Assembly (NCBI GenBank): GCA_018673485.1
Contig: JABHCP010000007.1
Location: forward strand, 9,890 to 73,889
DNA: 64,000 nt
Direction of reading: 5' to 3'
Origin: Candidatus Uhrbacteria bacterium
GTDB lineage: Bacteria; Patescibacteriota; Patescibacteriia; UBA9934
In this document: positions 3,153-57,639 of the stretch, piece after piece
How the letters are laid out: each line of letters begins with the position of its first letter
Position numbering within the stretch: the stretch's first letter is position 1
The notes under the pieces: generated by a model
Databases searched by the model: none
The model's input: only the letters and a program-made list of their open reading frames with translations
What the model was told of the DNA's origin: nothing
Program-made: the position numbers and the translations under genes

Positions 3153-3242
3153 TTCGATCGAACGTTGAGCTATCTACGGGATCCTTCCTCCTTCGCTAAA
3201 GCTACGGCGGACTTACAGTCGTCGCCTTACTCCTCTGGATGG
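3153..3242 (+). repeat. modular GC-rich repeat (CGATCGAACGTTGAG...GGGATCCTTC...CTCTGGATGG)
   Basis: shares both terminal blocks with the copy at 42684..42761. Confidence 0.45.
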
Positions 3243-27210: not shown

Positions 27211-27227
27211 ACCTGTTTAATAAATCA

Positions 27228-27267
27228 CGGTTTCACTAATTGAACGATCGTTCAATTAGTGAAACCG
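27228..27267. repeat. 40-bp perfect palindrome centred on CGATCG
   Basis: CGGTTTCACTAATTGAACGATCGTTCAATTAGTGAAACCG, 3' of iscS. Confidence 0.8.
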
Positions 27268-27285
27268 TCCGATCTTCGTAATATG

Positions 27286-28498: not shown

Positions 28499-28538
28499 AT
28501 GTTTCACATATTGGACGATCGTCAACATTGTGAAACAT
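28499..28538. repeat. 40-bp near-palindrome centred on CGATCG (GTTTCAC arms)
   Basis: ATGTTTCACATATTGGACGATCGTCAACATTGTGAAACAT immediately 5' of iscS; shares GTTTCAC...GTGAAAC arms with 27228..27267. Confidence 0.7.
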
Positions 28539-32018: not shown

Positions 32019-32144
32019 CCACCGACGCTCCTCTGGAGCTTTGGCGGGCACGTCACGTCGTTCGCGAACGACGTGACAGGCGCGACTCCGTCACTCACCT
32101 TCGATGGTGGTCGCAAGTAGTTCTTTTCTATAAATTTATGATAT

Positions 32145-32221
32145 GGCCACGTGGCGAAGCTGGTTAACGCGACGGTCTGCAAAACCGTTACGCGTCGGTT
32201 CGAGTCCGACCGTGGCCTCCA
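32145..32221 (+). tRNA. tRNA-Cys (GCA)
   Basis: cloverleaf: acceptor GGCCACG/CGTGGCC, anticodon stem ACGGT/ACCGT, loop CTGCAAA, T-arm GTCGG-TTCGAGT-CCGAC, encoded CCA. Confidence 0.85.
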
Positions 32222-32407
32222 TCCGTAACAATTTGATACATCGAATTGTTACGGATGTCCTGAGCGAACGAAGAGAGTCGAAGGGCTCACGTTCGATAAG
32301 GGCATCAATAAAATTATCACTAATTACGAATCATTTGGGTTGAACCGTAAATGAGTGAAAAACAAAAACACCCCGCAAGGGGTGGTTTTTGTTTTTATGA
32401 TCGAAAA

Positions 32408-42408: not shown

Positions 42409-42647
42409 TTCGATATTGGCGCACTGTTGCGGCCTGGCCAATCACCGCATATCAAAAAACCCTCTCGTTTGACCATGGTCCGATGAGGGTTTTGTTTCCG
42501 CACGGTTATTGTAGGTTTCATCCGTCGTGTTCTGAATATGCCAAGCTCGCGATTTTAAAGTATGGAGTCGTCTGGGGCGGCTTGAAAGGCGGGTATCGAA
42601 TTTTAAAATGCAATCCTTGGAATAAAGGCGGGGTTGATAGGCCTTGA
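42396..42647 (+). CDS. yidD: membrane protein insertion efficiency factor YidD
   Basis: YCRFHPSCSEYA signature. Confidence 0.85.
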   Translation: MERLIRYWRTVAAWPITAYQKTLSFDHGPMRVLFPHGYCRFHPSCSEYAKLAILKYGVVWGGLKGGYRILKCNPWNKGGVDRP

Positions 42648-42683
42648 GAAAAAAACACCCATCTCGAGGAGTCCAAAGACGAC

Positions 42684-42761
42684 GAGAGATCCCGTGCGTA
42701 ACCGATCGAACGTTGAGATAGCGGTGGGATCCTTCGGCCCGTCGGACGGGCCTCTGGATGG
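42684..42761 (+). repeat. modular GC-rich repeat (copy of 3153..3242 type)
   Basis: CGATCGAACGTTGAGATA...GGGATCCTTC-hairpin-CTCTGGATGG. Confidence 0.45.
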
Positions 42762-42777
42762 TATGCATTTTCTATGT

Positions 42778-44239: not shown

Positions 44240-44380
44240 GCCATTGAGTAAATAAAATCAGGAGACATTCCTCCTGTTTCCGATTGCATTGTATCAAGTT
44301 ATTGCTAGTTTGATCAAAAAGGTTTCACTAAGGTCCCGATCGGCCCTTTAGTGAAACCTTCTTGACGTCGACGGCTTGGC

Positions 44381-45119: not shown

Positions 45120-45148
45120 TTGACAAGAGCGTGTTTTTGTGTTATATT
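45120..45148 (+). promoter_or_regulatory. sigma70-type promoter (TTGACA-17-TATATT)
   Basis: directed at the 45282 ORF, which has a GGAGG RBS. Confidence 0.45.
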
Positions 45149-45281
45149 TTGCAGTCCTGCTGAGTCTACGGACCAGCTGACAACCTTCCTTGGGCCTACC
45201 ACACAATTCGTGAGGGGGCAGCAAAGAAGGATCCTTTTTCAGGACCTACTTCGTGAAAGCGGAGGGGTTGCTGGAGAAATC

Positions 45282-45656
45282 ATGAACGATAAAGCAGACG
45301 TGATCATGTGCGCCCACCAAGGCACCTTCATGGTGTACCCTCACCCCGAAGGGCGCCTGGCACACCTCTACGAGGAAGTCACGGTCAATATCAGAGGGAA
45401 CGACTTTGTGAAGCCAAAGGTCTGGATCCTTGGTGCGTCCTGGGCCGACACGATTCTCGGAACGCACGGGACTCGTCAGGAGGTGGATACCCTCAAGCGC
45501 TTGATGCGTAGTGAGGGCATCGTATACCAGGTCACGCAAGACGAGATGGTCCCATGCTGCCAGCCTGCCCGTAAGAACAACGAGTGGGTCTGGTACGACT
45601 CTGACCGTGCCCAGCTGCGAACTGACTCGCCTTTGGCGATCTTCTTTAGCGGCTAG
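45282..45656 (+). CDS. hypothetical protein (124 aa) in a high-GC islet
   Basis: RBS GGAGG 9 nt upstream of the ATG; long GC hairpin and T-run downstream. Confidence 0.45.
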   Translation: MNDKADVIMCAHQGTFMVYPHPEGRLAHLYEEVTVNIRGNDFVKPKVWILGASWADTILGTHGTRQEVDTLKRLMRSEGIVYQVTQDEMVPCCQPARKNNEWVWYDSDRAQLRTDSPLAIFFSG

Positions 45657-45885
45657 ACTTAACAGCTTTTTTCTTCCCCCTCTCTCAACCCCCATCAAAC
45701 CTGAAGGACTCCCATGTCCAACTCACGGTTTGTGGGGGGTTCTTCTTTTATAGAAAAAATAGACAACTTACCGCTTAGATGGCCCTGTGTTTTTTTTCTA
45801 TCCATTCGATGTTCGATCGGACATTTTATGAATTTATCAAAATTGCTTTTGAGGCTGATTTAAAGACTGCGTTTAGAGATATCAA

Positions 45886-45921
45886 TTTTCATAATACGTT
45901 CGATCGAACGTATTATGAAAA
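45886..45921. repeat. 36-bp perfect palindrome centred on CGATCG
   Basis: TTTTCATAATACGTTCGATCGAACGTATTATGAAAA; a degenerate relative at 45806..45826. Confidence 0.8.
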
Positions 45922-45982
45922 TAAAGCATCAACGCCCCACTCGTTGTACGAGTTGGGGCGTAGTTGATTGCGCACGAGGGCG

Positions 45983-48135: not shown

Positions 48136-48258
48136 AAAATTTATTCTCAAAGTGATTTGATTTACGAGCGGAGTATGTCGAATTTAGAGGATTTTGTCAA
48201 TGATTTGATCAGAACACAGACGTAAGACTTTAGACTCCAGAGCAAGGTCCGGTATTCT

Positions 48259-48288
48259 CAAGGTTGAACCTTTAAAGGTTCAACCTTG
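48259..48288. repeat. 30-bp perfect palindrome CAAGGTTGAACCTTTAAAGGTTCAACCTTG
   Basis: relative of 20294..20323. Confidence 0.7.
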
Positions 48289-48385
48289 GCGGTAAACCAT
48301 TGATATTATTGAGTATTTGTGATTACATGCACTTGTCGAAATCAATCGGCGAGTTTCTGGCGAGTACGTCAGATTGGGGTGAGTA

Positions 48386-48922
48386 ATGAGTGTTCCAATG
48401 ATCGGTGATAGCGGTGTGCTCCTGCAGGTTTCAACGATGAGGGCCAATGCTGTCATGCGACTTCTGAGTATGGAGTGCTTCCGTGTAGTGCCCTTCCTGA
48501 TCGATGCTCGTGAGGAGTTCCGTCCCAGCGACTGGTTTAGGACCATCGGTGAGTTCCATGAGTGGGTCATGCAGAGTTCAGAGACGCAGTTTGCTGACAA
48601 GCTCCGTGCGGCATGGGGACAGATCGAAGCGGATCTATATGCCAGAAATATCCCAGCTAACCTTGAAGTTGTGGCCAACCGCATTCGAGCGTTCAAGCTG
48701 CCTAAGGGTACGGAGCGGATTGAATGGTCCCGGGATGGCAAGAACATTGTCATTGAAATCAACGACTGGCATGACGAATTCGATAGCTTGGAACGCTTCC
48801 TGGAACTTCTTGCAAAAGATGCTTGGCGATCGAACGATGACGTACATGCGCATAGCGTCATCCGGCTCGCTCAAGAACTCCTCGCGCTCGACAACTTCCC
48901 GATCCGTAGACCTACCGACTAG
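48386..48922 (+). CDS. hypothetical protein (178 aa) in a high-GC islet
   Basis: the plus-strand ORF has a normal composition; the overlapping minus ORF is a Ser/Arg-rich artefact. Confidence 0.5.
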   Translation: MSVPMIGDSGVLLQVSTMRANAVMRLLSMECFRVVPFLIDAREEFRPSDWFRTIGEFHEWVMQSSETQFADKLRAAWGQIEADLYARNIPANLEVVANRIRAFKLPKGTERIEWSRDGKNIVIEINDWHDEFDSLERFLELLAKDAWRSNDDVHAHSVIRLAQELLALDNFPIRRPTD

Positions 48923-48927
48923 GTAGG

Positions 48928-48947
48928 CTGAGTTCGATCGAACTCAG
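48928..48947. repeat. 20-bp perfect palindrome CTGAGTTCGATCGAACTCAG
   Basis: CGATCG-centred family; immediately after the 48922 stop. Confidence 0.7.
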
Positions 48948-48949
48948 CG

Positions 48950-48986
48950 TCCCCGCGCCCACTCGGCGCGGGGTTCTTGTTTTTTA
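48950..48986 (+). terminator. intrinsic terminator
   Basis: CCCCGCGCC-CACT-GGCGCGGGG followed by TTCTTGTTTTTT. Confidence 0.65.
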
Positions 48987-49055
48987 AAACGAAAGAGCCG
49001 ACTCGCGCCGGCCCTTTTTTATCTGTGTACTGTGAACTGCGTACTGTGCACTTCA

Positions 49056-52617: not shown

Positions 52618-52652
52618 TTAAAAACACCTTGCTTCACGCAGGGTGTTTTTTT
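52618..52652 (+). terminator. intrinsic terminator
   Basis: AAAAACACC...GGGTGTTTTTTT. Confidence 0.6.
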
Positions 52653-52672: not shown

Positions 52673-52710
52673 ATTTTCATGATAGGTTCGATCGAACCTA
52701 TCATGAAAAT
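52673..52710. repeat. 38-bp perfect palindrome centred on CGATCG
   Basis: ATTTTCATGATAGGTTCGATCGAACCTATCATGAAAAT abutting the stop codon of 52710..53252. Confidence 0.8.
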
Positions 52711-53252
52711 TATATTTCTGAAGCATGGAATATTTTCACCCAATCCGAGTTTTTAAATTTTATGCTAAAAAGCCTAGAAAGGTCGTCGCTTACATTCTTT
52801 TTGGTAGTCCAAACACTTCGGTGCATTTGCTTGAATCCGATTCGTTTTAATAGGTGTCTAATTTGTCTTCGAATTAGCTTTTGACTTTCAGGTATATCAA
52901 AAGATACAACACACAATTGGTTTGAGGGCAGATAGTTGGCGTTCATACTTTTTAATCTAAGGTATTCTTCAATCCCTTTTTCTGTAAGCGATATATAGTA
53001 TTGATCAGCGATTTTGTTTTCTAAAATAAATTTCTTTTGACGCAATTTTTTCAGTGTTTGTTTTCGGCTCCATTTTTCTTTGTTGTGCAAATACTTTCTT
53101 GCTCCGTTTATCCCAAACCTAACCACAAGACCTGGCCTAGCTAGGCCGAAGTGGAGATCGGATATTGAATTACCAATTTCAACAAGAAGATTTGATGTTC
53201 TAGAGTTAGTTATTAGTGGATATTTGTTTTCACGATGTGTTCGATCGGACAT
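52710..53252 (-). CDS. hypothetical protein with winged-HTH-like N-terminal region and Cas2/PaaX-C-like C-terminal motif
   Basis: YISLTEKGIEEYL wing; VVSFDIPESQKLIRRQIRHLLKRIGFKQMHRSVWT resembles the Cas2/PaaX_C core; gene is bracketed by CGATCG palindromes. Confidence 0.45.
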   Translation of the reverse strand: MSDRTHRENKYPLITNSRTSNLLVEIGNSISDLHFGLARPGLVVRFGINGARKYLHNKEKWSRKQTLKKLRQKKFILENKIADQYYISLTEKGIEEYLRLKSMNANYLPSNQLCVVSFDIPESQKLIRRQIRHLLKRIGFKQMHRSVWTTKKNVSDDLSRLFSIKFKNSDWVKIFHASEI

Positions 53253-53256
53253 ATCT
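53235..53256. repeat. imperfect CGATCG-centred palindrome overlapping the start codon
   Basis: GATGTGTTCGATCGGACATATC. Confidence 0.5.
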
Positions 53257-53276
53257 TGATTATTATTTATTGCGAG

Positions 53277-54794
53277 CTAGAACCTTGTACATCGATATCT
53301 TAGCGCCTCGGCGAGGTGGTTGATTTCTATATTTTCAGATGCGCATAGGTCTGCGATTGTTCTGGCAACTTTTAGTGTGCGTGTATAAGCGCGAGCTGAT
53401 AGTTGATACTGATCGATCGCTTTTTTTAAAATCACAATACTAGAATCATCAAGTTTGCAGAATTTCCCTAAAAGCCTGGTCGTTAGTTGATCATTAGTTG
53501 CGATAGGTAACTTTTTGTATCTAGACAGTTGTATTTGTCGGGCCTTGGTTATTCTTTTTTTGATGTTTTTTGAGGATTCGCTGACTTGGTTTGATGTTAG
53601 TTTGTCGAATTCAACTCTAGGCACATTAATTGTAATATCAATCCGGTCCAATATCGGACCTGATAGTTTTCTTTTGTATTTTTGGATTTGTCCTGGGGTG
53701 CATTCGCATGGTCTCTTTGGGTCGTGCAGAAAACCACACGAGCAAGGGTTCATCGCCGCAACTAGCATGAAGTTTGAGGGAAAGGTGATTGTTCCAGATG
53801 CGCGTGCGATAGTGACACACTTGTCTTCGAGTGGTTGCCGTAGATTCTCGATTGTCTTGCGAGTAAATTCAGCAAACTCATCCATAAATAGTATTCCATT
53901 GTGCGCGAGTGAGACTTCACCCGGCCTGGGCCACGTTCCCCCACCGATTAGTGCAGTGCTCGAACTTGTGTGATGTGGATGTCTAAAAGGCCTCTCGGTT
54001 AGTAGATAGGTTTCATCAAGAAGTCCAGAGATAGAATATATCTTTGTAGTTTCAAGTGATTCATCAAATTGCAAAGATGGTAGTATCGATGGAATTGCTC
54101 TGGCCAGCATGGTTTTTCCAGATCCTGGTGGCCCAACCATTAGCATATTGTGATTTCCAGCAGCGGCGATTTCCAGGGCGCGTTTAACATGATCCTGCCC
54201 CCGAACGTCTGAAAAGTCGATTAGGTTTTTAGGAGTTGGTTTTTTGGAGGGCTTGTGAGCGTGACAGTCGAGCTCTGAGTTCTCTCGTAGCTTGCTGACA
54301 AGCTCCTGGAGCGTGTTTGCGGTGCATGTACTAACATCCTTCACGATTGATGCTTCATGGGCGTTGTCGGGTGCTACTACCACGCGATCAAGTTTTCGAT
54401 CTTTGCACATTGTGGCAGCCAAGAGCGCACCTTGCACTGGTCTGATCTCGCCGTCGAGCGATAGCTCTCCTAAGAAGACTGATGTTTTTGTTATGTTCGT
54501 CTGTGATATCGCGCCAGAGGCGATTAATATGCTCAAAGCAATGGGTAGGTCATACATTGGTCCTTGTTTTTTGAGGTTTGCCGGTGCGAGGTTGACTGTG
54601 ACTCGCGTTCTAGGAAAGGTTAGCCCACTATTTTTAATAGCAGCGCGAATACGTTCGCGCGATTCGGAAATTGCCGCATCTGGCAATCCTACTATGGTAA
54701 ACCTTGGTAAGCCTGAAGAAATGTCAGCCTCCACTCGCACTGGGACGCTTTTGAGCCCAACGTGGGCTGAAGAATAAATAAAAGAAGATCCCAT
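53277..54794 (-). CDS. YifB/ComM-family Mg-chelatase-like AAA+ ATPase
   Basis: N-terminal Lon-protease-like ChlI region, Walker A GPPGSGKT; 505 aa. Confidence 0.85.
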   Translation of the reverse strand: MGSSFIYSSAHVGLKSVPVRVEADISSGLPRFTIVGLPDAAISESRERIRAAIKNSGLTFPRTRVTVNLAPANLKKQGPMYDLPIALSILIASGAISQTNITKTSVFLGELSLDGEIRPVQGALLAATMCKDRKLDRVVVAPDNAHEASIVKDVSTCTANTLQELVSKLRENSELDCHAHKPSKKPTPKNLIDFSDVRGQDHVKRALEIAAAGNHNMLMVGPPGSGKTMLARAIPSILPSLQFDESLETTKIYSISGLLDETYLLTERPFRHPHHTSSSTALIGGGTWPRPGEVSLAHNGILFMDEFAEFTRKTIENLRQPLEDKCVTIARASGTITFPSNFMLVAAMNPCSCGFLHDPKRPCECTPGQIQKYKRKLSGPILDRIDITINVPRVEFDKLTSNQVSESSKNIKKRITKARQIQLSRYKKLPIATNDQLTTRLLGKFCKLDDSSIVILKKAIDQYQLSARAYTRTLKVARTIADLCASENIEINHLAEALRYRCTRF

Positions 54795-57502: not shown

Positions 57503-57516
57503 TGTCCGATCGGACA
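57503..57516. repeat. palindrome TGTCCGATCGGACA
   Basis: CGATCG-centred family. Confidence 0.6.
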
Positions 57517-57580
57517 TCAAGTGAACTCACACATAGTCGCTTTTGAGTTGATTCTAAAGACCATATTTATGAACGCCAAT

Positions 57581-57614
57581 GTTCGCGTTAGGTTCGATCG
57601 AACCTAACGCGAAC
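57581..57614. repeat. 34-bp perfect palindrome GTTCGCGTTAGGTTCGATCGAACCTAACGCGAAC
   Basis: CGATCG-centred family; shares the TAGGTTCGATCGAACCTA core with 52673..52710. Confidence 0.8.
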
Positions 57615-57639
57615 AGAAGATGCTCGCATTGGAATTTAA

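What the first reader, a model, noticed from the sequence alone, without database searches (positions are those of the whole stretch)
52673..53256. Gene for a wHTH/Cas2-PaaX_C-like protein bracketed by CGATCG palindromes, one overlapping its start codon
ORF 52710-53252 has a winged-helix-like N-terminal segment. Its C-terminal block VVSFDIPESQKLIRRQIRHLLKRIGFKQMHRSVWT resembles the Cas2/PaaX C-terminal fold. It is bracketed by a 38-bp perfect palindrome abutting its stop codon and an imperfect one across its ATG (MSDR is encoded by part of the palindrome). The latter would make translation initiation structure-sensitive. Alternatively it marks the gene as a discrete inserted unit, which may be the protein that binds these palindromes.
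Basis: partly seen in the sequence, partly recalled or inferred. Interest (0 to 1): 0.6.

Follow-up and report, generated by a model that had tools for sequence, protein, structure and literature searches.

The report
Palindrome-flanked mini-PaaX (wHTH–Cas2-like) gene cassette
A small DNA-binding-type protein of an ultra-small (CPR/Patescibacteria) bacterium has copies of one long CGATCG-centred palindrome at both ends of its gene, and the same gene-plus-palindromes arrangement recurs across the whole phylum, which points to an apparently undescribed self-contained protein/DNA-site module.

Summary
ORF 52710-53252 (-) encodes a 180-aa winged-helix plus PaaX_M (Cas2-like) protein of a Candidatus Uhrbacteria genome. 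A perfect 38-bp CGATCG-centred palindrome overlaps its stop codon by 1 nt. A degenerate copy of the same palindrome covers its ATG.

The pattern is general. In 82 loci of homologs from across Patescibacteria, 63 have a palindrome at one or both gene ends and 35 have one at both. Most centres are CGATCG or CGGCCG; the arms differ between genomes and paralogs. Long palindromes are about 78-fold denser just after the stop codon than elsewhere in these loci.

They are not the organism's ordinary terminators. Their mismatches show no G·U bias. Differences between copies are symmetric, so each copy stays perfect. The upstream copy usually sits on or next to the gene's promoter.

Best reading (about 0.5): a minimal PaaX-type dimer binds its own long palindromic operators and represses itself. 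The CGATCG-centred solo palindromes elsewhere in the window (four perfect, two imperfect) would then be extra sites or scars of lost cassettes.

Rivals: a REP/RAYT-like selfish cassette with a Cas2-like nuclease; a cruciform or DNA-repair factor; RNA hairpins. I found no prior description.

The parts
52710..53252 (-). Gene for a 180-aa two-domain protein. The N-terminal half is helical/winged-helix (recognition helix ~61-75, wing 76-89). The C-terminal half is a PaaX_M (Cas2-like) beta-alpha-beta-beta-alpha-beta domain (112-178) with the FDIPE...R...RSVW signature.
   Evidence: NCBI names it HN358_03060, Candidatus Uhrbacteria. It is the only homolog in the window.
52673..52710 (.). 3' palindrome: perfect, 38 bp, ATTTTCATGATAGGTTCGATCGAACCTATCATGAAAAT, overlapping the stop codon by 1 nt. 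Proposed second operator, cassette boundary, or possible terminator.
   Evidence: As a hairpin it folds at -23.6 kcal/mol, z -8.3. It lies between convergent genes, next to a separate canonical terminator of the M23 peptidase gene (52620-52650).
53230..53259 (.). 5' site: degenerate copy of the same palindrome (TCACGATGTGTTCGATCGGACATATCTTGA) covering the ATG and codons 1-8. Proposed autoregulatory operator centred about +10 from the predicted transcription start.
   Evidence: (23/32 flank identity to the 3' copy). Orthologs carry an equivalent site at or near their start, in other reading frames.
53262..53291 (-). Promoter-like element TGTACA-18-AATAAT inside the 3' end of the comM-like gene. 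It would start transcription a few nt before the ATG. Consensus match only.
45885..45922 (.). Solo copy of the same 38-bp palindrome (ATTTTCATAATACGTTCGATCGAACGTATTATGAAAAT). It differs from the gene copy at 4 positions, which form 2 symmetric compensated pairs. Part of 'module A'.
   Evidence: It lies in a convergent intergenic region.
45810..45823 (.). Short palindrome TGTTCGATCGGACA. It shares the 15 nt ATGTCCGATCGAACA with the gene's start region on the - strand. Its centre is 87 nt from that of the 45885 palindrome. It opens only an 8-codon ORF.
57580..57615 (.). Solo 36-bp perfect palindrome sharing the central 18 bp (TAGGTTCGATCGAACCTA) with the gene's palindrome. Part of 'module B', a ~150-bp insertion relative to a related genome.
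57503..57516 (.). Short palindrome TGTCCGATCGGACA. This is the core 14-mer found next to homologs in distant Patescibacteria. Its centre is 88 nt from that of the 57580 palindrome, and a promoter-like TTGGCG-17-TAGAAT lies between them.
48927..48948 (.). Solo 22-bp perfect palindrome with the same 12-bp core, GTTCGATCGAAC.
27227..27268 (.). 42-bp perfect palindrome of a second family (arms GGTTTCACTAA, centre GAACGATCGTTC). Its arms resemble the cognate palindrome of the comEC-linked homolog P0168, so it probably belongs to a paralog outside the window.
28500..28537 (.). Imperfect member of the second family, 7 nt upstream of the ATG of the cysteine-desulfurase-like gene.
44321..44358 (.). Imperfect member of the second family, in a divergent promoter region between pyruvate kinase (-) and an HD/YfbR-like gene (+).

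Best explanation
The gene encodes a minimal PaaX-family DNA-binding protein: a winged helix-turn-helix joined to the Cas2-like PaaX_M dimerisation domain, without the effector-binding PaaX_C domain.

Inferred mechanism: it acts as a dimer that recognises the long CGATCG-centred palindromes at both ends of its own gene. The 5' copy overlaps the predicted transcription start and the ATG, so binding there would repress the gene's own transcription. The perfect 3' copy would be a second operator, acting as a looping partner, a roadblock, or a terminator that marks the cassette boundary.

The conserved centre of the palindrome (W4-5 TGTCCG-RY-CGGACA W4-5; GTTCGATCGAAC in this window) would be read by the conserved Cas2-like dimer core. 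The variable outer arms would be read by the poorly conserved wHTH, giving each paralog its own site. Perfect symmetry would be maintained by arm-to-arm conversion in transient hairpins.

Solo palindromes elsewhere in the window would be extra binding sites or scars of cassettes that lost their gene.

What is shown: the fold and family assignment, the palindromes, and the phylum-wide gene/palindrome association. What is inferred: binding, dimerisation, repression, and the division of labour between the two domains.
For: Family and fold:
- PaaX_M, E 2.2e-10.
- Model pLDDT 89.5, with a wHTH-like half and a Cas2-like half.
- Foldseek hits to Cas2 and to PaaX 8a39; wHTH profile hits to AspA/PadR/MarR.
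- E. coli PaaX represses its own promoter and binds a ~39-bp site, TGATTC-N27-GAATCA (PMC9493321). The downstream palindromes here have a median length of 36 bp, range 26-50.

Association:
- 63 of 82 homolog loci have a palindrome at a gene end, and 35 have one at both ends.
- Density is 3.57 per kb just after the stop codon against 0.046 per kb elsewhere in 1.18 Mb.
- 56 of 84 long palindromes lie within 300 nt of a homolog.
- Paralogs in one genome carry different arms.

DNA-level site rather than RNA:
- Mismatch types show no wobble bias: G.T 15, A.C 12, other 42.
- CGATCG at the start codon sits in different reading frames, or just upstream of the ATG, in orthologs.
- One solo copy lies between divergent genes.
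- Canonical terminators exist separately.

Placement:
- Upstream copies lie a median of 25 nt before the ATG, with -10-like boxes in or just after the right arm.
- In the window, the promoter-like element at 53291-53262 puts the site centre at about +10.

Domain and site conservation run in parallel: the C-terminal domain is more conserved than the N-terminal one (typically 30-65% against 13-53% identity), and the inner motif is more conserved than the outer arms.
Against: - Perfect symmetry over 26-50 bp at every position is more than a dimeric regulator normally needs. It points to hairpin or cruciform pairing, or to a copying mechanism.
- The downstream copy occurs equally often whether the next gene is co-directional (21 of 44) or convergent (17 of 35), so it is not a promoter element of a neighbour.
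- Solo sites are not conserved at syntenic positions in genomes whose ComM is 78% identical, so there is no conserved regulon.
- Arm similarity does not track the wHTH half better than the Cas2-like half (Spearman 0.16 against 0.23).
- All invariant residues, including the acidic D119 and E122, lie in the Cas2-like domain, which would also fit catalysis.
- 19 of 82 homologs show no palindrome.
- There are no binding, expression or dimer data.
Confidence: 0.5

Rival explanations
1. Selfish or domesticated palindrome-bounded cassette, analogous to REP/REPIN-RAYT systems or to repeat duplication at CRISPR integration. The wHTH-Cas2-like protein would be a site- or structure-specific nuclease or recombination factor acting at the dyad of its cognate palindromes as hairpin or cruciform DNA. 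This would generate the duplicated flanks and the dispersed solo copies, and would move or replace cassettes between sites.
For: - The gene is flanked on both sides by near-identical copies, including shared imperfections (L020, L029).
- When the two copies differ, each stays perfect: 18 differing positions forming 9 symmetric pairs in 4 loci. In the window there are 2 such pairs.
- Several paralogs per genome each have their own arms.
- Solo copies are insertions relative to a relative: ~150 bp after PNPase, and ~900 bp between PPase and trigger factor.
- At the syntenic comM site one relative lacks the gene, and two carry members only 39-41% identical. The 54%-identical relative sits after comEC, although ComM is 77-80% identical throughout.
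- There is no conserved partner gene.
- Invariant F118 D119 P121 E122 R128 S146 lie in the Cas2-like domain, at the position of the Cas2 catalytic Asp.
Against: - No known transposase or recombinase fold is present.
- PaaX_M is a dimerisation domain in a characterised repressor, and the FDIPE/R/SVW motif may be structural.
- Outside this window solo copies are few: 9 CG-centred ones in 1.17 Mb.
- No homolog is found in 2.9 M viral contigs.
- No empty site with a single palindrome was found at the comM site of L136.
- Solo copies can arise simply by deletion between the flanking repeats.
Confidence: 0.22
2. A DNA-repair or recombination accessory factor, or a regulator of DNA damage or competence. 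The protein would recognise four-way or hairpin structures extruded from the palindromes, or would control neighbouring repair genes through these sites.
For: - Immediate neighbours are repeatedly repair or recombination genes: uvrB-uvrA-X-uvrC in 6 loci, recG-X-radA in 5, comM-X in the window, L137 and L139, comEC-X in L011 and L013, and an Exo/endo-phosphatase enclosed by the same palindromes in L047.
- In L016 the cognate palindrome also lies between uvrB and uvrA.
- From general knowledge, not tested here: RecG, RadA and ComM are all branch-migration helicases, and a cruciform is a four-way junction.
Against: - Only about 15-16 of 82 loci show this. They are phylogenetically clustered, so the counts are not independent.
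- Most neighbours are unrelated housekeeping genes.
- radA is convergent, so it is not driven from the palindrome.
- No palindromes were found at other repair genes, and this was not surveyed genome-wide.
Confidence: 0.12
3. RNA-level elements. The palindromes would act as transcribed hairpins: terminators, mRNA-stabilising stem-loops, or, a start-codon hairpin that gates translation. They might be bound or cut by the Cas2-like (RNase-type) domain.
For: - The 3' palindrome would form a -23.6 kcal/mol hairpin (z -8.3) right after the stop codon, and the consensus scan lists it as terminator-like on the + strand.
- Downstream copies begin a median of 4.5 nt after the stop.
- From general knowledge, not tested here: some Cas2 and VapD proteins are RNases.
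Against: - The start-codon RNA structure is no better than shuffles (-4.2 kcal/mol, z -0.54).
- There is no G.U excess among mismatches.
- The organism has separate canonical GC-rich, U-tailed terminators right next to the palindromes.
- On the gene's own strand the hairpin is not followed by a U-run.
- One copy lies between divergent genes.
- The conserved centre would be the loop, and identical copies upstream of the gene are unexplained by this reading.
Confidence: 0.1
4. Coincidence, or a generic genome feature: CGATCG palindromes are a genome-wide repeat unrelated to this gene.
For: The window holds six other CGATCG-centred palindromes (four perfect, two imperfect) that are not adjacent to a homolog.
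Against: 78-fold enrichment at homolog stop codons in 80 independent loci, matching copies at both ends, and the same architecture from Uhrbacteria to Saccharibacteria.
Confidence: 0.02

Closest known systems
PaaX, the phenylacetyl-CoA-responsive repressor (PF07848 + PF20803 + PF08223; PDB 8A39, 3L09)
   Same: wHTH followed by the Cas2-like PaaX_M dimerisation domain. Significant PaaX_M hit, and a fold match over 144 columns. PaaX represses its own promoter and uses an unusually long (~39 bp) inverted-repeat operator.
   Different: No PaaX_C effector domain (180 against ~310 aa). No PF07848 hit for the N-terminal half. No paa genes nearby. Restricted to Patescibacteria among named records. The operator would be a perfect, spacer-less palindrome with a conserved CG-RY-CG centre, present at both ends of the gene. 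Several paralogs per genome.
CRISPR-associated Cas2 (the name NCBI gives to several homologs)
   Same: The C-terminal domain has the Cas2 ferredoxin-like fold, and an aromatic-Asp at the end of beta-1 plus an SVW/SVF strand motif.
   Different: Below the TIGR01573 cut-off (19.9 against 24.5 bits). Fused to a wHTH. No cas1 and no CRISPR array in the window. Found in lineages largely lacking CRISPR (the last point from general knowledge). The 'Cas2' annotation is misleading.
REP/REPIN-RAYT systems of proteobacteria
   Same: The gene is flanked by its cognate palindromic repeats. Each paralog has its own repeat family. Solo copies sit in intergenic regions. A short core is conserved while the remainder varies.
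   Different: The protein is not an HUH/Y1 transposase. The palindromes are perfect and spacer-less. Copy number is low (roughly one per 10 kb here, and mostly only the two flanking copies elsewhere).
Centromere- or site-binding wHTH proteins with adjacent palindromic sites (AspA of pNOB8, TubR, ParB-parS)
   Same: Small dimeric (w)HTH proteins whose palindromic sites lie next to their own gene. AspA is the best PDB sequence match to the wHTH half (E 0.003).
   Different: No partition ATPase or GTPase neighbour. The match is marginal and generic for PadR/MarR-type wHTH. The Cas2-like domain is absent from those proteins.
HIP1 (GCGATCGC), the highly iterated palindrome of cyanobacteria
   Same: Over-represented palindrome with a CGATCG core.
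   Different: From general knowledge: HIP1 is an 8-mer at very high density, mostly inside genes, with no dedicated flanked gene. Here the palindromes are 26-50 bp, rare, intergenic, and tied to one gene family.

Membership tests
PaaX family (Pfam PaaX / PaaX_M / PaaX_C) | PaaX_M central Cas2-like domain (PF20803) above the gathering score | tested here: met
   40.9 bits against a cut-off of 24, E 2.2e-10, residues 114-178. Precomputed PF20803 on essentially all homologs.
PaaX family (Pfam PaaX / PaaX_M / PaaX_C) | N-terminal PaaX-type winged helix (PF07848) | tested here: inconclusive
   No PF07848 hit at E<=1. The model does have a helix-helix-wing arrangement that aligns with PaaX 8a39 and with PadR/AspA/MarR wHTH profiles.
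PaaX family (Pfam PaaX / PaaX_M / PaaX_C) | C-terminal helical effector domain PaaX_C (PF08223) | tested here: not met
   The protein ends at residue 180, directly after the Cas2-like domain, and has no PF08223 hit. A few longer CPR relatives (250-290 aa) do carry it.
PaaX family (Pfam PaaX / PaaX_M / PaaX_C) | Control of paa or aromatic catabolic genes, with phenylacetyl-CoA as effector | tested here: not met
   The neighbours are dksA-like, lspA, comM-like, M23 peptidase and H+-PPase. No paa genes appear among neighbours of the 80 loci. The effector is not testable.
PaaX family (Pfam PaaX / PaaX_M / PaaX_C) | Binds a long inverted-repeat operator overlapping its own promoter | not testable with these tools
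   The sequence is compatible: a 30-bp degenerate palindrome over the predicted TSS and ATG, and a 38-bp perfect one at the 3' end. Binding needs EMSA or footprinting.
CRISPR Cas2 | Cas2 model above the trusted cut-off | tested here: not met
   TIGR01573 scores 19.9 bits against a cut-off of 24.5. PADLOC Cas2 models score E 7e-5 to 1e-3 over 35-45 residues only.
CRISPR Cas2 | Encoded next to cas1 and a CRISPR array | tested here: not met
   No 20-mer is repeated >=3 times, or twice at 40-100 nt spacing, in the 64-kb window. The flanking genes are not cas genes.
CRISPR Cas2 | Ferredoxin-like Cas2 fold with Asp at the end of beta-1 | tested here: met
   Foldseek probability 0.9-1.0 to Cas2 chains (8q2n, 5zyf, 6jhz), TM-score on the target 0.45-0.60. 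D119 is invariant at the end of strand 112-118.
REP/REPIN-RAYT | HUH/Y1 (IS200/IS605-like) transposase | tested here: not met
   No such Pfam hit. There is no HUH motif and no invariant Tyr among the conserved columns.
REP/REPIN-RAYT | Gene flanked by cognate palindromic repeats, with further copies dispersed in intergenic DNA | tested here: met
   35 of 82 loci are flanked on both sides. The window has solo family members at 45885, 57580 and 48927, plus a second family.
Intrinsic (Rho-independent) terminator | GC-rich stem-loop immediately followed by a U-run on the transcribed strand | tested here: not met
   On the gene's strand the hairpin is followed by AACAAUCAUUUUUACC. Only 5 of 17 stem pairs are GC. 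Canonical terminators are present separately. One family member lies between divergent genes.

The most novel reading that the evidence does not exclude
Patescibacteria carry a phylum-wide, so far undescribed class of autonomous 'palindrome-gene-palindrome' cassettes. In this reading a wHTH-Cas2-like protein acts enzymatically or structurally on hairpin or cruciform DNA at the dyad of its own cognate palindromes. It would cut, nick or recombine there, which would duplicate the flanks and seed solo copies. This would be a non-HUH analogue of REPIN-RAYT, and a possible evolutionary relative of repeat recognition by Cas2. It may be tied to recombination or repair, given neighbours such as RecG, RadA, ComM and UvrABC.
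Probability: 0.25. Interest if true: 0.85.

Novelty: new variant of a known kind. Interest (0 to 1): 0.7.

Why it matters
Gene regulation and genome dynamics in CPR/Patescibacteria are almost unexplored, and these bacteria have very few recognisable regulators. This work pairs a widespread, mis-annotated protein family (labelled 'Cas2', 'PaaX' or hypothetical; 936 clusters at 50% identity) with a specific, easily recognised DNA element: a perfect 26-50-bp palindrome with a CG-RY-CG centre at both ends of the gene.

- That gives an immediately testable protein/DNA pair for EMSA, DAP-seq or nuclease assays.
- It corrects the Cas2 annotation in lineages that largely lack CRISPR.
- It explains assembly breaks and odd intergenic insertions in CPR genomes.

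If the protein is only a repressor, it shows how a stripped-down PaaX scaffold reads a ~38-bp operator. If the Cas2-like domain acts on the palindromes, it would be a new kind of repeat-associated element, with bearing on the origin of repeat handling by Cas2.

Tried and rejected
- Single-sequence AlphaFold2 gave a useless model (pLDDT 37.6). The alignment-based run was used instead.
- The word-indexed homolog search with the single protein found only the protein itself. The exhaustive HMMER search was needed.
- The search for related loci with the 66-sequence alignment failed because no stretch was conserved enough. It was repeated with 11 close sequences.
- Viral contigs hold no homolog. The 41 hits to the 14-mer there were not followed up.
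- The metagenome scan for the window's 38-bp family returned only three contigs, all identical to window loci, so genome-wide copy number could not be measured.
- Rfam finds nothing but tRNA-Cys, and only noise at the palindromes.
- PADLOC shows only sub-significant Cas2 hits, so no known defence system is indicated.
- A test for co-variation between the palindrome arms and the wHTH half against the Cas2-like half was inconclusive. Correlations were weak and not stronger for the wHTH.
- Other window ORFs next to solo palindromes (212, 227, 193/178 and 399 aa) are not hidden paralogs, and they have no Pfam or PADLOC hits.
- A LexA or SOS-box reading was considered because GAAC-N4-GTTC occurs in some family members.
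- Six literature searches found no description of the motif or the association.
Full report
WHAT IS IN THE WINDOW

ORF 52710..53252 on the minus strand encodes 180 aa from the first possible start codon. NCBI holds the identical protein as HN358_03060 of a Candidatus Uhrbacteria bacterium, a member of CPR/Patescibacteria.

A perfect 38-bp palindrome, ATTTTCATGATAGGTTCGATCGAACCTATCATGAAAAT, spans 52673-52710 and shares one base with the TAA stop codon. A 30-bp imperfect palindrome, with 18-nt arms that are 83% complementary, spans 53230-53259 and covers the ATG and the codons for MSDR.

The gene follows a comM/YifB-like Mg-chelatase-family ATPase after a 24-nt gap. It converges on a LysM/M23 peptidase gene that has its own canonical terminator at 52620-52650.

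THE PROTEIN

- Pfam places the PaaX central Cas2-like domain (PF20803) on residues 114-178, at 40.9 bits against a cut-off of 24.
- The Cas2 equivalog model is below its threshold.
- PaaX_C is absent.
- An exhaustive HMMER scan finds 936 cluster representatives (263 at E<=1e-10), nearly all 160-195 aa long.
- Named sources are Patescibacteria. The names given are 'hypothetical', 'Cas2', 'PaaX' or 'PadR'.
- Invariant residues (F118 D119 P121 E122 R128 S146) all lie in the C-terminal domain.

An AlphaFold2 model built with a 66-sequence alignment is confident, at pLDDT 89.5. It shows helices 18-38 and 40-72, a beta wing at 76-89, a helix at 91-103, and then a beta-alpha-beta-beta-alpha-beta domain at 112-178. 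Foldseek matches the C-terminal half to Cas2 structures. It matches the whole chain to E. coli PaaX (8a39, 144 columns) and to Rv0674. A sequence profile matches the N-terminal half to AspA/PadR/MarR/ArsR winged helices.

THE PALINDROMES ARE A FAMILY

- The window has 7 perfect palindromes with half-length >=11. None appeared in 100 Markov simulations.
- Five of the seven have a CGATCG centre: 27227-27268, 45885-45922, 48927-48948, 52673-52710 and 57580-57615.
- CGATCG itself occurs 35 times against 15 expected.
- GTTCGATCGAAC with up to 1 mismatch occurs 9 times against 0.27 expected.
- The 45885 copy differs from the gene's copy at four positions, which form two symmetric pairs.

The site at the start codon is a degenerate copy of the same element. 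Its flanks match the 3' palindrome at 23 of 32 positions, against a median of 10 for the other CGATCG sites. Its core, TGTTCGATCGGACA, recurs at 45810 and, as TGTCCGATCGGACA, at 57503.

Those two short sites each lie 87-88 nt (centre to centre) from a long palindrome, with a conserved promoter-like spacer between them. I call these 'modules A and B'.

A second family has arms GGTTTCAC...GTGAAACC. It sits at 27227, ~28500 and ~44321.

Only one homolog of the protein is encoded in the window.

THE ASSOCIATION IS PHYLUM-WIDE

The two closest relatives with DNA (53-54% identity) sit in a different context, after comEC. Each has a 36-40-bp perfect CGATCG palindrome touching its stop codon. The first codons of each repeat the centre and one arm of that palindrome.

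I then fetched 80 loci from one-genome-per-species contigs. They include Uhr-, Kerfeld-, Veblen-, Davies-, Curtiss- and Saccharibacteria, and Paceibacterota. Including the window and locus L013 gives 82 loci.

- 63 have a palindrome at a gene end.
- 35 have one at both ends, 23 only downstream, 5 only upstream, and 19 have none.
- Centres are CGATCG in 36 loci and CGGCCG in 15. Others are CAGCTG, CGTACG, GCGGCCGC and GCGATCGC.
- Long palindromes occur at 3.57 per kb in the 105 nt around the stop codon, against 0.046 per kb in the remaining 1.17 Mb.
- 56 of 84 lie within 300 nt of a homolog.
- Downstream copies start a median of 4.5 nt after the stop and are a median of 36 bp long.
- Genomes with several paralogs have different arms at each paralog.

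Read from the centre outward, the half-site is [T/C]-C-G-[G/T]-[A/G]-[C/A]-A followed by an A/T tract at positions 8-11. This gives roughly W4-5 TGTCCG-RY-CGGACA W4-5, and further out the arms are free.

WHAT KIND OF ELEMENT

Not ordinary terminators:
- PNPase, the M23 peptidase and PPase genes have separate GC-rich, T-tailed terminators beside the palindromes.
- The gene-strand tail of the 3' palindrome lacks a U-run.
- One family member lies between divergent genes, pyruvate kinase and an HD-domain gene.

Not obviously RNA-level:
- Among imperfect copies, G.T mismatches (15) do not exceed A.C (12) or other types (42).
- The start-codon RNA folds no better than shuffles (-4.2 kcal/mol, z -0.54).
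- In the syntenic ortholog L137 the start reads ATGACGATCGTCG, so the CGATCG is in another frame. In L139 the site is upstream of the ATG.

Self-complementarity is actively kept:
- In ten loci with two perfect flanking copies, six pairs are identical.
- The other four differ at 18 positions that form nine symmetric pairs.
- Flanking copies also share imperfections, as in L020 and L029.

Position relative to the gene:
- Upstream copies end a median of 25 nt before the ATG, often 3-25 nt.
- -10-like boxes lie in or just after the right arm, so the palindrome overlaps or abuts the gene's promoter.
- In the window a promoter-like TGTACA-18-AATAAT (53291-53262) would put the 5' site at about +10.
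- The downstream copy is present equally often whether the next gene is co-directional (21 of 44) or convergent (17 of 35). It therefore belongs to this gene and not to the neighbour.

TURNOVER

ComM orthologs that are 77-80% identical were found in three related genomes.
- One of them (L136, the genome whose homolog sits after comEC) has no PaaX_M gene at the comM site. It has an unrelated 136-aa ORF there instead.
- That genome also has no palindromes after PNPase or PPase, where the intergenic regions are 73 and 98 bp. In the window they are 232 and 905 bp.
- The other two genomes (L137, L139) do have a PaaX_M gene at the comM site. It is only 39-41% identical to the window's protein, whereas the comEC-linked protein is 54% identical.

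So the family evolves or exchanges far faster than its neighbours, and solo palindromes are lineage-specific insertions. No homolog occurs in 2.9 M viral contigs.

NEIGHBOURS

There is no conserved partner gene; the largest neighbour cluster covers 6 of 80 loci. Repair and recombination genes do recur, however:
- uvrB-uvrA-X-uvrC in 6 loci
- recG-X-radA in 5 loci
- comM-X and comEC-X
- an ExoIII-family gene enclosed by the same palindromes in L047

The loci are phylogenetically clustered, so I treat this only as a lead.

MECHANISM

The closest characterised protein, E. coli PaaX, is a wHTH protein with a dimerisation motif (the PaaX_M domain). It represses its own promoter and binds TGATTC-N27-GAATCA, a ~39-bp site (PMC9493321). 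The palindromes here have the same span.

The most economical model is therefore a minimal PaaX-type dimer that binds its own long palindromic operators. The conserved Cas2-like core would sit over the conserved CG-RY-CG centre. The variable wHTHs would sit on the variable arms. This fits the higher conservation of the C-terminal half and of the inner motif. The 5' site would give autorepression.

Modules A and B look like remnants of cassettes that kept an upstream palindrome, a promoter and the 5' operator but lost the coding region. This is inference.

What the model does not explain well:
- perfect symmetry at every position
- identical duplicated flanks
- cassette turnover
- invariant acidic residues in the Cas2-like domain

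These keep alive a REP/RAYT-like or cruciform-acting nuclease reading. I put the operator model at about 0.5, the selfish or nuclease cassette at about 0.22, a repair-linked role at about 0.12, RNA-level roles at about 0.1, and coincidence at about 0.02. The association itself I regard as established. Binding, dimerisation and regulation are inferred.

COMPARISON AND NOVELTY

The protein is a member of the PaaX_M-domain superfamily. It is not a PaaX regulator in the functional sense, because it has no PaaX_C domain and no paa genes nearby. It is not a CRISPR Cas2 either: it scores below threshold, and there is no cas1 and no array.

Six full-text searches found no description of the motif, or of a palindrome association for this family. 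The library is incomplete, so earlier work cannot be excluded.

I classify the finding as a new variant of a known kind, namely an autoregulated PaaX-type DNA binder with an unusual double perfect-palindrome architecture. There is a realistic chance (about 0.25) that it is something more novel.

LIMITS

- There are no experimental data.
- Genome-wide copy numbers could not be obtained.
- Promoter calls are consensus matches only.
- Start codons in the 80 loci were assigned mechanically.
- Several record titles ('uncultured Gammaproteobacteria') are placeholders.

Noticed in passing
window 45808-45922 and 57503-57615: Two ~115-bp 'modules', each made of a long CGATCG palindrome, a conserved spacer with a promoter-like element (TTGGCG-17-TAGAAT in B), and the short palindrome ATGTCCGATCGRACA. 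The two palindrome centres are 87-88 nt apart. Each short palindrome opens only an 8- or 17-codon ORF. Module B is a ~150-bp insertion relative to a related genome. They are possibly remnants of cassettes that lost their gene, or a small transcription unit.
   Followed up: partly
window 27227-27268, 28500-28537, 44321-44358: A second CGATCG palindrome family with outer arms GGTTTCAC...GTGAAACC, which are parS-like half-sites. The members lie 16 nt before a 212-aa ORF, 7 nt before the cysteine-desulfurase-like gene, and between divergent pyruvate kinase and HD/YfbR-like genes. The arms resemble the cognate palindrome of the comEC-linked homolog P0168 (L013). This suggests a second paralog elsewhere in the genome.
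   Followed up: partly
window 48151-49055: A ~900-bp insertion between H+-PPase and trigger factor; a related genome has 98 bp here. It is bounded by a 30-bp perfect palindrome with a TTTAAA centre (48259-48288) and a 22-bp CGATCG palindrome (48927-48948). It encloses an ORF of unknown function (178 aa on + with an SD-like GGGGTGAG, or 193 aa on -), relatively GC-rich by eye, with no Pfam or PADLOC hit.
   Followed up: partly
L016, L018, L024, L030, L034, L059; L020, L022, L028, L033, L088; L047: Homologs are repeatedly embedded in repair or recombination clusters: uvrB-uvrA-X-uvrC, and recG-X-radA. In L016 the cognate palindrome also sits between uvrB and uvrA. In L047 an ExoIII-family gene is enclosed by the same palindromes. 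In the window the upstream gene is comM-like. RecG, RadA and ComM are all branch-migration helicases.
   Followed up: partly
L136 6519-7072 and L139 2763-3131: At the syntenic comM/M23 site, relatives carry unrelated small ORFs (136 and 122 aa) on the opposite strand, in DNA that looks GC-rich (not measured). The site appears to be a hotspot for insertion or replacement.
   Followed up: no
window 32052-32077 and 32220-32257: A 26-bp perfect palindrome with a TTCGCGAA centre lies just upstream of tRNA-Cys (32145-32221). A 38-bp imperfect palindrome lies immediately after it.
   Followed up: no
window 45120-45660: A strong promoter-like site (TTGACA-17-TATATT with TG) is followed by a ~130-nt leader and a small ORF that looks GC-rich (45283..45656, 124 aa, SD GGAG). 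A canonical terminator follows. No family hit.
   Followed up: no
L143 (contig Ga0257125_1051802): A metagenome contig ends exactly at the last base of the 45885-45922 palindrome. These palindromes may break short-read assemblies.
   Followed up: no
window 3153-3167 and 42704-42718: The 15-mer CGATCGAACGTTGAG is shared by two otherwise unrelated CGATCG sites. One is intergenic at ~3155. The other lies inside ORF 42442..42768.
   Followed up: no
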